Source of the DNA: a virus
Taxonomy: Duplodnaviria > Heunggongvirae > Uroviricota > Caudoviricetes
DNA length: 64,000 nt
IMG/VR virus record: IMGVR_UViG_2585427757_000006
Direction: 5' to 3' (one strand)
Shown: piece by piece, positions 12,690-13,835 of the stretch
How positions within the stretch are numbered: position 1 is the first letter of the stretch
Layout: each line of letters starts with the position of its first letter
The notes under the pieces: generated by a model
The model's database searches: none
Told to the model about the DNA's origin: nothing
Seen by the model: only the letters and a program-made list of their open reading frames with translations
Translations under genes and position numbers: made by a program

Positions 12690-13835
12690 ATGAAATACAT
12701 AAAATCTTCATCGTTGCTGGCATTAACTTTGCTTTTTAGCTCTGGATTCGTTAACGCAGACAATAAACAAACGCTGATAGAAGCCGCTACCGCAGGGGAT
12801 ACCGCAGCACAAAGTGAGTTAGGGACAAATTATTTTGATGGTATCAATGGTTTTGATAAGGATGTAGTTGAGGCCAAGAAGTGGATTGATCTCGCTGCAG
12901 AAAAGGGAGACAAAGTAGCATATTATGCACTTGGGGTTATGTACACATTTGGCGAGGGTGTAGATAAAGACCTAAATAAAGCTGTTGAGTACTACAAACT
13001 TGCGGGGGATGCTCGTGAAGGTAGAGCCTACAACAATCTTGGTGCTATTTATCAAAAGGGGTTGCTTGGTAAAGTAGATCATGCACTCGCCATTAAATAC
13101 TTCAAACTAGCCTCTGATGCCGGGTATGTTAAAGCAACTTCAGTTCTTGGGGCGTATTACCAATATGGTAAAGGCGTTAAAAAGAATTATAAAAAGGCTT
13201 TTACTTATTACAAAAAGGCGGCAGACCAAGGCAGTTCAGAAGCTATGATAGGATTAGGAATACTATACGATGATGGGTTAGGCGTTAAACGCAATGATGC
13301 AGAAGCAGTTAAGTGGTATAAAAAGGCAGCGGAACTTGGAAACGCCGACGCCATAACCAATCTTGGCATTATGTATGAGAATGGGGAAGGTGTAAAAAAG
13401 GACTATAAAAAAGCAGCCGACCTTTATCAGACTGCTTGCGATAAAGGAGAAAAAAGAGGCTGCGATTACATTGCAGAACTGAAAGAAAGCGGCAAATATC
13501 GAGCGCCGGCTTCCAAAGCCAAAACAAAATCCGCCACCCAGCGACTTATTGCTAAATCCATTGATAAGGGCGTTAACGCTACATTTACCTGGCAGGGTGA
13601 TGATGCTACCTTCACCGCTAATGATGGCAAAGTTGACTGCACATTCCTGAAGGATTTTTCAGAGAAAGGAGGCAATCTGGCTACCTCGTTTGTTTGCACA
13701 GATAACGTTCAAATCATCCTGAAGCAATTCAGAGATACCAAAAATGCCTACCTCGCGGTAATGACTGACAACTTCAATACTGAAGTTAAATCATTTTCGG
13801 TCAATGTGTATGTGACTAATACTGGTTCAAACTAA
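12690..13835 (+). CDS. secreted Sel1-repeat (TPR-like) protein
   Basis: Signal peptide MKYIKSSSLLALTLLFSSGFVNA, then repeated Sel1-type units (AxxWYxKAAEQGxxxAQxxLGxMYxxGxGV-like); plus strand among minus-strand replication genes. Confidence 0.75.
   Translation: MKYIKSSSLLALTLLFSSGFVNADNKQTLIEAATAGDTAAQSELGTNYFDGINGFDKDVVEAKKWIDLAAEKGDKVAYYALGVMYTFGEGVDKDLNKAVEYYKLAGDAREGRAYNNLGAIYQKGLLGKVDHALAIKYFKLASDAGYVKATSVLGAYYQYGKGVKKNYKKAFTYYKKAADQGSSEAMIGLGILYDDGLGVKRNDAEAVKWYKKAAELGNADAITNLGIMYENGEGVKKDYKKAADLYQTACDKGEKRGCDYIAELKESGKYRAPASKAKTKSATQRLIAKSIDKGVNATFTWQGDDATFTANDGKVDCTFLKDFSEKGGNLATSFVCTDNVQIILKQFRDTKNAYLAVMTDNFNTEVKSFSVNVYVTNTGSN

What the first reader, a model, noticed from the sequence alone, without database searches (positions are those of the whole stretch)
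12690..13835. Secreted Sel1-repeat protein encoded on the opposite strand inside the replication module
The gene has a signal peptide plus multiple Sel1/TPR-like repeats and sits on the plus strand between minus-strand genes. This moron-like placement suggests a host-interaction or periplasmic effector rather than a replication role.
Basis: partly seen in the sequence, partly recalled or inferred. Interest (0 to 1): 0.5.

Follow-up and report, generated by a model that had tools for sequence, protein, structure and literature searches.

The report
Exported Sel1-repeat cargo gene, phage-plasmid
This is a real, intact accessory gene of an SSU5-like E. coli phage-plasmid that encodes an exported Sel1-repeat protein ending in a small, undescribed beta-barrel; it is optional cargo rather than a replication gene, is already annotated in many plasmids, and has no known function.

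Summary
ORF 12690..13835 (+) encodes 381 aa. It has a Sec-type signal peptide (MKYIKSSSLLALTLLFSSGFVNA|DNK). It has six Pfam Sel1 repeats (E 9.8e-55), which AlphaFold models as 14 helices. It ends in a ~100-aa domain with no Pfam, NCBIfam or PDB sequence match, modelled as an 8-stranded beta-barrel.

The window is an SSU5-like phage-plasmid (96% to phage Cyrano, 99.9% to E. coli plasmids). The gene lies in a 1,865-bp variable cassette (11978..13842) between the ligase-side genes and the primase/helicase genes. Phage Cyrano has 30 bp there. SSU5 has an unrelated gene. Only 55 of 252 E. coli genomes with the flanks carry the whole cassette.

The gene has lower GC than its neighbours, a conserved promoter-like motif, and dN/dS of 0.05-0.16. 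IS-disrupted and deleted copies exist. The family also sits at the ends of unrelated prophages. It is therefore moron-type cargo, not a replication gene, although it is an old resident of this slot in Escherichia, Citrobacter and Enterobacter elements.

Function is inferred only. I think it most likely binds a target in the periplasm, possibly as an immunity or exclusion factor. The gene is already annotated (TPR/Sel1 protein, phrog_8741) but unstudied. Interest is modest.

The parts
11978..13842 (.). Variable cargo cassette (1,865 bp) between the phrog_4248 gene and the primase gene. Phage Cyrano has 30 bp here and SSU5 has 1,178 bp of unrelated sequence.
   Evidence: blastn breakpoints against Cyrano (L001) and SSU5 (L002). 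Slot sizes in plasmids. GC 0.414 against 0.462 for the whole window.
12009..12035 (.). GC-rich inverted repeat (9-bp stem ATGCCGGGC / GCCCGGCAT, 9-nt loop) just downstream of the lipoprotein gene. It resembles a terminator but has no clear T-run.
   Evidence: Read from the sequence. The terminator scan did not flag it.
12042..12456 (-). Co-cargo lipoprotein gene (phrog_2320). In pECOH89 it is 137 aa with the lipobox LVGC (MSKNKLILTGALLSLFALVGC|K). In this window an extra C at 12229 splits it into two ORFs (12190..12456 and 12042..12233).
   Evidence: Homologues occur in temperate phages, all annotated as hypothetical.
12457..12689 (.). AT-rich (GC 0.339) divergent intergenic region between the lipoprotein gene and the Sel1 gene. 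No obvious Shine-Dalgarno sequence precedes the ATG (AACAGAACAAAAAATATG).
   Evidence: No Rfam match.
12598..12626 (+). Conserved promoter-like element CTGACA-N17-TACCCT, 64 nt upstream of the ATG.
   Evidence: It occurs once in the 64-kb window, with 0 expected by chance. It lies at the same relative position upstream of the homologues in E. coli, E. fergusonii, Citrobacter and Enterobacter phage-plasmids and in the Pseudenterobacter chromosome. The pattern was derived post hoc and the generic sigma-70 scan missed it.
12690..13835 (+). Coding sequence of the 381-aa exported Sel1-repeat / beta-barrel protein (the finding).
   Evidence: (phrog_8741, full length, E 3e-210).
12690..12758 (+). Sec-type signal peptide, residues 1-23, with predicted cleavage at VNA|DNK.
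   Evidence: Rule-based check, with the pattern conserved in homologues. pLDDT <50 for residues 1-21. SignalP was not run.
12759..13493 (+). Sel1-like repeat solenoid, residues 24-268. It has 7 helical hairpins: 6 Pfam Sel1 units plus an N-terminal cap. The last repeat holds the invariant pair C250-x7-C258. Compared with the 417-420-aa homologues, exactly one 36-aa repeat is missing after residue 223.
13494..13541 (+). Variable Lys/Ser/Ala-rich linker, residues 269-284, modelled with low confidence.
13542..13832 (+). C-terminal domain, residues 285-381. It is predicted as an 8-stranded beta-barrel with the invariant Cys pair C317/C336. It is the best-conserved part of the protein and belongs to no described family.
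   Evidence: (pLDDT 88).
13827..13835 (.). Tail-to-tail overlap of 9 bp between the 3' end of the Sel1 gene and the 3' end of the primase gene. The same arrangement is kept in all Sel1-carrying relatives.
   Evidence: The primase C-terminus co-varies with Sel1 presence...KGIAALV in carriers...LGIKALS/V in Cyrano and SSU5.

Best explanation
The gene is lysogenic-conversion-type cargo of an SSU5-like phage-plasmid. It is transcribed from its own promoter, in the direction opposite to the lytic replication genes. Its product is exported by Sec, the 23-residue signal peptide is removed, and two disulfides form (C250-C258 and C317-C336). The mature protein stays in the periplasm.

There it acts as a binding protein, not an enzyme. 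The Sel1 solenoid provides a protein-binding groove, and the conserved C-terminal beta-barrel provides a second, more specific contact or anchor.

The role I consider most likely is protective. It would bind and neutralise a protein that attacks the envelope from outside, such as a muralytic or lipolytic toxin or a component of an incoming phage, in the manner of an immunity or superinfection-exclusion factor. It is not part of DNA replication.

Shown here: the domain anatomy, the export-type N-terminus, dispensability, purifying selection and mobility among temperate elements. Inferred: periplasmic residence, disulfides, expression in the carrier state, and the protective mechanism.

My estimate is about 0.85 for 'exported accessory binding protein, not a replication gene' and about 0.3 for the specific immunity or exclusion role.
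For: - Sel1 repeats and solenoid model.
- Signal-peptide pattern kept across homologues with about 50% identity.
- Four invariant cysteines in two close pairs, as expected for an oxidising compartment.
- Dispensable. It is absent from the phages Cyrano and SSU5, which have the same breakpoints. It is present in 55 of 252 E. coli genomes that have the flanks. Among 72,556 plasmids, 91 carry the C-terminal domain, and in every listed row it lies beside the primase gene. IS-interrupted copies and an internal-deletion remnant exist.
- Functional, not decaying: dN/dS is 0.13-0.16 in the repeats and 0.05-0.07 in the C-terminal domain.
- Foreign composition.
- A conserved promoter-like motif travels with the gene.
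- The same family sits after tail-fibre genes at the ends of lambdoid-like, P2-like and other prophages.
- Precedents for periplasm-directed Sel1 immunity proteins: PA5086-PA5088 against PldB (PMC6099711) and Sel1E against VgrG4 (PMC7108748). PA5087 and PA5086 (5jkp, 5jjo) are among the PDB sequence matches.
Against: - No experiment or publication covers this gene.
- SignalP could not be run.
- No sigma-70 consensus promoter, Shine-Dalgarno sequence or terminator was found by the generic scans.
- No toxin or effector gene lies next to it in the window, unlike true immunity genes.
- There is no real match to PADLOC defence models; the only hit is a spurious 39-residue TPR match to PtuA.
- The closest solved Sel1 proteins (Oxalobacter 6ok3, EsiB 4bwr) are linked to host interaction, not immunity.
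Confidence: 0.45

Rival explanations
1. It is a host-interaction or immune-evasion factor. The exported protein reaches the cell surface, vesicles or the medium and binds an animal-host molecule, as EsiB binds secretory IgA, or as the Helicobacter Hcp, Legionella LpnE and Oxalobacter Sel1 proteins act on host cells.
For: The best PDB sequence matches are an Oxalobacter Sel1 protein (6ok3, E 3e-90) and E. coli EsiB/c5321 (4bwr, E 5e-65). EsiB is an exported Sel1 protein of extraintestinal E. coli that binds SIgA (PMC3735183). Many carrier plasmids come from human and animal isolates.
Against: Matches among Sel1 repeats are generic and cover only residues 26-266. EsiB has no counterpart of the conserved C-terminal barrel. 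A Sec signal alone does not take a protein past the outer membrane in E. coli. Carriers also come from soil, wastewater and river water. Full-length homologues occur in Pantoea cypripedii and Pseudenterobacter. The EsiB SIgA-binding motif was not tested.
Confidence: 0.2
2. It modulates the host cell's own envelope machinery. It would act as a periplasmic scaffold or regulator that binds a resident E. coli protein, such as a peptidoglycan hydrolase, a sensor kinase, or an export or flagellar component. This would change the physiology of the carrier cell, in the way that ExoR, MotX and AlgK work.
For: NCBIfam gives sub-threshold similarity to the periplasmic Sel1 proteins MerG, MotX, AlgK and ExoR, and MotX and AlgK structures are among the PDB matches. 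The repeats diverge by mosaic exchange while the barrel stays nearly invariant. That fits a conserved host target for the barrel.
Against: All those scores are far below the family cutoffs (78 against 350 bits, 59 against 330, 58 against 700, 34 against 450). No partner gene is co-inherited. Nothing in the data separates this reading from the immunity reading.
Confidence: 0.2
3. It serves the phage-plasmid itself, in replication, lysis timing or virion assembly. One variant is that its convergent transcription dampens primase expression in the plasmid state.
For: It is embedded in the replication module. It always overlaps the primase 3' end, and the primase C-terminus co-varies with it. No terminator separates the convergent genes.
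Against: SSU5 and Cyrano are deposited as phage genomes and lack the gene. About four fifths of related E. coli elements lack it. IS-disrupted and deleted copies persist in complete plasmids. The protein carries an export signal. The same family occurs in prophages that have no such primase.
Confidence: 0.07
4. It is a decaying, functionless passenger.
For: It is often lost or interrupted. This allele has lost one repeat. The neighbouring cargo gene is frameshifted in this window.
Against: The frame is intact over 381 codons. dN/dS is 0.05-0.16 even where dS is high or saturated. The C-terminal domain is near full length in 88 of the 91 plasmids that carry it. The repeat loss is an exact in-frame 36-aa unit.
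Confidence: 0.05

Closest known systems
EsiB (c5321) of extraintestinal pathogenic E. coli, PDB 4bwr
   Same: It is an E. coli protein made with a signal peptide and built of tandem Sel1-like repeats that form a superhelix. The sequence match is E 5e-65 over residues 26-254 (PMC3735183, PMC3851747).
   Different: EsiB is longer in repeats (467-residue chain), has no C-terminal beta-barrel domain, is encoded on the chromosome and has a demonstrated SIgA-binding function. None of this was shown for the window protein.
Periplasm-directed Sel1-repeat T6SS immunity proteins (P. aeruginosa PA5086-PA5088 against PldB; K. pneumoniae Sel1E against VgrG4)
   Same: They are Sel1-repeat proteins that neutralise a toxin by binding it. 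PA5087 (5jkp) and PA5086 (5jjo) match the window protein at E 1e-12 and 1e-10 (PMC6099711, PMC7108748). Sel1E also has an uncharacterised C-terminal extension.
   Different: Those genes lie directly beside their effector genes. No effector lies near the window gene. Similarity is limited to generic repeats. The localisation of Sel1E was itself inconclusive.
Helicobacter cysteine-rich proteins (HcpB 1klx, HcpC 1ouv)
   Same: They are secreted Sel1-repeat proteins. 1ouv matches at E 2.7e-38 and 1klx at E 3.6e-17. The C-x7-C spacing of the window's last repeat (C250...C258) is the spacing I recall for Hcp repeats; that is from my own knowledge, not from a tool.
   Different: Hcp proteins carry the cysteine pair in every repeat. 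Here only one of seven hairpins has it. Hcp proteins have no beta-barrel domain.
MliC/PliC periplasmic lysozyme inhibitors and other small 8-stranded beta-barrels (DUF4251 4gdz, BtaiB 9jdd)
   Different: Sequence identity is 2-19%. There is no Pfam MliC or DUF4251 hit even at E 10 and no PDB profile hit. Foldseek against the PDB is not significant. The resemblance is at the level of a common fold only.
Phage morons (for example lambda bor and lom, or the cor-type exclusion lipoproteins near tail-fibre genes; from my own knowledge)
   Same: It is optional, compositionally distinct and oppositely oriented, and it encodes an envelope protein inside a temperate element. Relatives lie just after tail-fibre genes at prophage ends.
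   Different: No terminator of its own was found, and the gene overlaps the primase stop codon. It is an old and widely shared occupant of one slot, not a sporadic insertion.

Membership tests
Sel1-like repeat (SLR) proteins, Pfam PF08238 | Tandem 36-44-aa repeats scoring above the Pfam gathering threshold | tested here: met
   181.5 bits against a cutoff of 30.7, E 9.8e-55, six stretches. The pECOH89 allele scores the same way.
Sel1-like repeat (SLR) proteins, Pfam PF08238 | Alpha/alpha hairpin repeats stacked into a solenoid | tested here: met
   The AlphaFold2 model has 14 helices with a 36-residue period and pLDDT >90. This is a prediction, not a solved structure.
Sec-exported (signal peptidase I) proteins | Positive n-region, hydrophobic h-region, small residues at -3 and -1, and no lipobox | tested here: met
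   K2 and K5; core SLLALTLLF; VNA|D after residue 23; the pattern is conserved in diverged homologues. This is a rule-based check only. SignalP and experiments were not available.
Phage moron | Present or absent among otherwise collinear relatives | tested here: met
   Cyrano has 30 bp and SSU5 has an unrelated gene at the same breakpoints. 55 of 252 E. coli genomes carry the whole cassette.
Phage moron | Base composition distinct from the surrounding genome | tested here: met
   GC 0.416 and GC3 0.374, against 0.47-0.51 and 0.51-0.52 for ligase, primase and helicase.
Phage moron | Own promoter | tested here: inconclusive
   CTGACA-N17-TAMCCT is conserved 60-64 nt upstream in six loci and occurs once in the window. 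The -10 box is weak (3 of 6), the pattern was defined post hoc, and the generic scan found nothing upstream.
Phage moron | Own terminator | tested here: not met
   There is no intrinsic-terminator-like site on the + strand after 13835. The gene overlaps the primase stop codon by 9 bp.
Phage moron | Expressed from the repressed prophage or plasmid state | not testable with these tools
   This needs transcriptome or reporter data from carrier strains. No paper on this gene was found.
Helicobacter cysteine-rich (Hcp) proteins | A disulfide-forming Cys pair in each repeat | tested here: not met
   Only the last repeat has a pair (C250, C258). The other two cysteines are in the C-terminal domain.
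MliC/PliC lysozyme inhibitors (Pfam PF09864) | Sequence match to the family model | tested here: not met
   No MliC hit for any of 10 C-terminal-domain sequences at E up to 10. No PDB profile hit.
MliC/PliC lysozyme inhibitors (Pfam PF09864) | Small 8-stranded antiparallel beta-barrel | tested here: met
T6SS Sel1-type immunity proteins | Encoded directly beside the cognate effector gene | tested here: not met
   The neighbours are a lipoprotein gene, a phrog_4248 gene and the primase gene. The Pseudenterobacter homologue lies among orphan CDI toxin fragments but not directly after one.
EsiB-type SIgA-binding proteins | The SIgA-binding motif and binding activity | not tested
   Only generic repeat similarity was measured. 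The motif comparison and binding assays were not done.
Known anti-phage defence systems (PADLOC) | Match to a defence-protein model | tested here: not met
   The only hit is a 39-residue TPR-like match to PtuA with no accepted stretch.

The most novel reading that the evidence does not exclude
Sel1-repeat proteins with this C-terminal barrel would form an undescribed family of periplasmic immunity or exclusion factors carried by temperate phages and phage-plasmids. The near-invariant, previously undescribed beta-barrel would clamp a conserved envelope-acting enemy protein, such as a phage-tail or T6SS muralytic or lipolytic enzyme. The freely recombining Sel1 solenoid would tune specificity. 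Carriage of an SSU5-like element would then change which phages or competitors can kill the host.
Probability: 0.25. Interest if true: 0.55.

Novelty: new member of a known kind. Interest (0 to 1): 0.3.

Why it matters
SSU5-like phage-plasmids are common in clinical and livestock Enterobacteriaceae and sometimes carry ESBL genes; pECOH89, which has this gene, is one example. About one fifth of them carry this exported protein at a fixed hotspot. If the protein changes the cell envelope's response to phages, competitors or the host, it would be a lysogenic-conversion trait spread by these elements. Its C-terminal barrel would then define a new domain family. As it stands, this is an unstudied but unsurprising cargo gene of a well-known repeat class.

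Tried and rejected
- Positive selection on the repeats: rejected. The repeats are far more diverged than the barrel (66% against 98% identity to the E. fergusonii allele). However, dS is equally inflated (1.39 against 0.19) and dN/dS is 0.16, so this is mosaic recombination, not diversifying selection.
- Transposon or integrase-type insertion: no flanking direct or inverted repeats at the breakpoints. The only near-matching 13-mer pair lies off the boundaries and is at chance level.
- Structured RNA or riboswitch in the leader or cassette: no Rfam match at E up to 1.
- A sigma-E type promoter (AACTT-N16-TCAAA) seen by eye in the E. fergusonii upstream region: not conserved in the window or in Citrobacter, so dropped.
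- PADLOC PtuA hit: a spurious TPR-like fragment.
- Sequence family for the C-terminal domain: none in Pfam, NCBIfam or PDB. An exhaustive HMMER scan of 1.84 billion representatives found only 9 hits. One of these is a junk tandem-repeat translation and one is a marginal Ig-like match.
- The alternative cargo in SSU5 (SSU5_041, 321 aa) was checked as a possible analogue. It has no signal peptide and no Pfam, NCBIfam or PADLOC match, so it gives no clue.
- The lipoprotein partner does not travel with the Sel1 gene in other contexts.
- The afdb50 fold library was unavailable.
- The full-length AlphaFold model gave a poor C-terminal domain (pLDDT ~50). Only the domain-alone model was usable.

Full report
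**What the window is.**
Positions 9000-18000 match Escherichia phage Cyrano at 96% and Salmonella phage SSU5 at 81%. The finding's surroundings (11900-14100) match E. coli plasmids of ~110 kb at up to 99.9%, and match pECOH89 at 96.5%. The window is therefore part of an SSU5-like phage-plasmid. Pfam identifies the neighbours as an ATP-dependent DNA ligase (9283..10605, -), a Toprim/DnaG-like primase (ORF 13827..15080, -) and a DnaB-like helicase (15090..16430, -). 'Inside the replication module' is correct.

**Checking the observation.**
- The ORF runs from the ATG at 12690 to the TAA at 13833-13835 on the + strand and encodes 381 aa.
- Pfam Sel1 (PF08238) scores 181.5 bits, E 9.8e-55, with six repeats.
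- PHROGs has a full-length family of unknown function, phrog_8741 (E 3e-210).
- AlphaFold2 on an alignment of ten homologues gives 14 helices with a strict 36-residue period and pLDDT >90.
- The N-terminus MKYIKSSSLLALTLLFSSGFVNA|DNK has the n, h and c regions of a Sec signal peptide. That pattern persists in homologues of only 50-60% identity. SignalP itself could not be run.
- The four cysteines are invariant and form two close pairs, C250/C258 and C317/C336. This fits an oxidising compartment.

The protein has a third part. Residues ~285-381 have no Pfam, NCBIfam or PDB sequence match, yet they are the most conserved segment of the protein. Folded alone with ten diverse sequences, this segment gives a confident model (pLDDT 88, pTM 0.79) of eight beta-strands.
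- Foldseek against the PDB finds nothing significant.
- BFVD returns small phage proteins, one of them named 'putative lysozyme inhibitor'.

The fold is therefore a generic barrel and no family membership follows. The domain is rare. An exhaustive profile scan of 1.84 billion representatives found nine proteins. The credible full-length ones carry it after Sel1 repeats; the others are fragments, a junk repeat translation and a marginal Ig-like match.

**The gene sits in a variable slot.**
Homology to Cyrano stops at 11977 and resumes at 13843. Cyrano has 30 bp in place of the window's 1,865 bp. SSU5 shares nearly the same breakpoints (11981 and 13852) but carries 1,178 bp with an unrelated, cytoplasmic-looking gene, SSU5_041. 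The window's cassette contains the following parts:
- a GC-rich hairpin at 12009-12035;
- a minus-strand lipoprotein gene (phrog_2320; lipobox LVGC);
- an AT-rich divergent intergenic region;
- the Sel1 gene.

In this window the lipoprotein gene is split by an extra C at 12229. That base is absent from pECOH89 and from the 99.9%-identical pEcFELIX526.1.

Distribution:
- Of 252 complete E. coli genomes that match the region, 55 hold at least 80% of it.
- Most E. coli relatives sampled in PLSDB have an empty slot of about 30 bp.
- Among 72,556 plasmids, 91 carry the C-terminal domain: 60 Escherichia, 22 Enterobacter, 8 Citrobacter and 1 uncultured. In every listed row it lies beside the primase gene.

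**Evolution.**
The gene is not a recent arrival. Citrobacter and Enterobacter elements carry a 417-aa version in the same place, with the same overlap of the primase stop codon, and without the lipoprotein gene. Their primase and helicase are 92-94% identical to the window's. E. fergusonii has the 417-aa form together with the lipoprotein gene. The window's 381-aa form lacks exactly one 36-aa repeat.

Between the E. coli and Citrobacter elements the Sel1 protein is only 59% identical. Within Escherichia, the repeat region can differ strongly while the barrel is nearly identical: 66% against 98%. Synonymous divergence shows the same contrast (dS 1.39 against 0.19), and dN/dS is 0.05-0.16 throughout. 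The gene is therefore under purifying selection and is mosaic by recombination; it is not under diversifying selection.

Losses are visible:
- an ISSen4-interrupted copy;
- IS1414 and IS1 neighbours of the gene;
- a plasmid in which 12124-13696 has been deleted, leaving the last 46 codons.

**Mobility.**
The same family lies just after tail-tip and tail-fibre genes at the end of a lambdoid-type prophage. It lies beside P2-like tail-fibre and baseplate genes and at another prophage end in Enterobacter kobei, there as an IS-truncated copy. It lies among orphan CDI toxin fragments and transposases in Pseudenterobacter. It also lies in a Pantoea replicon. This is the distribution of cargo, not of a core phage function.

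**Expression signals.**
The generic scan found no consensus promoter upstream and no terminator downstream, and there is no clear Shine-Dalgarno sequence. An alignment of upstream regions from diverged homologues reveals a conserved CTGACA-N17-TA(A/C)CCT element 60-64 nt before the ATG. It occurs once in the window against 0 expected. It occurs at the equivalent position in six loci, including the chromosomal Pseudenterobacter gene. I read it as the gene's own promoter, but it was defined post hoc and is untested. The gene's GC (0.416; GC3 0.374) is well below that of the replication genes (GC3 0.51-0.52).

**Function.**
Nothing has been published on this gene. No paper in the library combines SSU5, phage-plasmid or pECOH89 with Sel1. 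The repeats match many solved Sel1 proteins over residues 26-266 only:
- an Oxalobacter protein (6ok3, E 3e-90);
- EsiB of E. coli (4bwr, E 5e-65);
- human SEL1L, HcpC, AlgK and MotX;
- the Pseudomonas immunity proteins PA5087 and PA5086 (5jkp, 5jjo).

Known exported bacterial Sel1 proteins act by binding other proteins. EsiB binds SIgA (PMC3735183). PA5086-PA5088 are immunity proteins against PldB, which targets the periplasm (PMC6099711). Sel1E protects against VgrG4 (PMC7108748).

Three facts bear on the choice of mechanism. The protein has a Sec signal and no secretion system nearby. It recurs as cargo of temperate elements. Its barrel has inhibitor-like and immunity-like fold neighbours. 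On that basis the mechanism I think most likely is a periplasmic binding protein that protects the carrier cell, in an immunity or superinfection-exclusion role. I put this at about 0.3. An EsiB-like host-interaction role and a role as modulator of the host's own envelope proteins are each about 0.2. A role in replication or phage development is unlikely, because Cyrano and SSU5 are deposited as phage genomes and lack the gene, and most relatives lack it too.

**Verdict.**
Two claims go beyond the evidence. 'Secreted effector' is not supported, because a Sec signal predicts only the periplasm. 'Moron' is only partly supported: no terminator of its own was found, the gene overlaps the primase stop codon, and it is an old resident of the slot.

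The gene is already annotated in dozens of RefSeq plasmids as a TPR or Sel1 repeat protein, and it belongs to a very well-known repeat class. The only new element is the undescribed C-terminal barrel. Interest is modest.

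Noticed in passing
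window 12042-12456 (extra C at 12229): The lipoprotein gene next to the Sel1 gene is frameshifted in this window. It is 137 aa with the lipobox LVGC in pECOH89 and belongs to phrog_2320. The cause is one extra C in a C-run. That base is absent from pECOH89 and from the 99.9%-identical pEcFELIX526.1, so it is either a real pseudogenisation or a homopolymer sequencing error. Homologues occur in temperate phages (SEN4/5, Fraca), all annotated as hypothetical.
   Followed up: yes
window 17406-18209 (-): The DUF2971 protein (267 aa) downstream of the replication genes matches the PADLOC candidate defence family PDC-S31 over its full length (E 3e-41). It may be an anti-phage cargo gene of the phage-plasmid.
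   Followed up: partly
window 6075-6983 (+): A very AT-rich segment (GC 0.295 over 6001-7000) holds a 302-aa plus-strand ORF with no Pfam match. It lies between a glutaredoxin gene (5656..5901, -) and the tRNA cluster. It looks like another foreign insertion.
   Followed up: partly
window 7162-7719 (-): A cluster of four tRNA genes: Ser(tga), Thr(tgt), Tyr(gta) and Asn(gtt). The Cyrano record annotates only Ser, Thr and Asn in the matching place.
   Followed up: no
window 23046-27467 (-): A 1,473-aa tail-fibre-like ORF has a long Ala/Ser-rich low-complexity stretch. This explains the GC peak (0.607) and the strong AT skew at 26-27 kb.
   Followed up: no
window 13827-13860; L001, L002, L009, L011: The last ~10 residues of the primase co-vary with the slot content: ...SKVKGIAALV in Sel1 carriers and ...SKVLGIKALS/V in Cyrano and SSU5. 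The recombination junction therefore lies inside the primase 3' end.
   Followed up: partly
window 11140-11916 (-); L002, L009: The phrog_4248 gene left of the slot diverges very fast. It is 40-42% identical between the E. coli and the Citrobacter/SSU5 types, while primase and helicase are 92-94% identical. The whole ligase-to-primase interval is thus a hotspot of variation.
   Followed up: partly
L002:4206-5171 (SSU5_041): SSU5 and the pHCM2-like Salmonella plasmids carry a different plus-strand gene in the same slot. It is 321 aa, has no signal peptide and has no Pfam, NCBIfam or PADLOC match. It is an alternative cargo of unknown function.
   Followed up: partly
L006:8047-8982: In the metagenomic prophage that carries a family member after its tail-fibre genes, a second and different Sel1-repeat protein lies 0.8 kb downstream. 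It is 311 aa, has no signal peptide, and has a Cys-rich motif and a hydrophobic C-terminus.
   Followed up: no
L020 (CP088502.1) 1233-1640: A 158-kb IncFIB/IncHI1B cointegrate-like plasmid keeps only a remnant of the cassette (window 11858-12123 joined to 13697 onward). This shows loss by internal deletion.
   Followed up: yes
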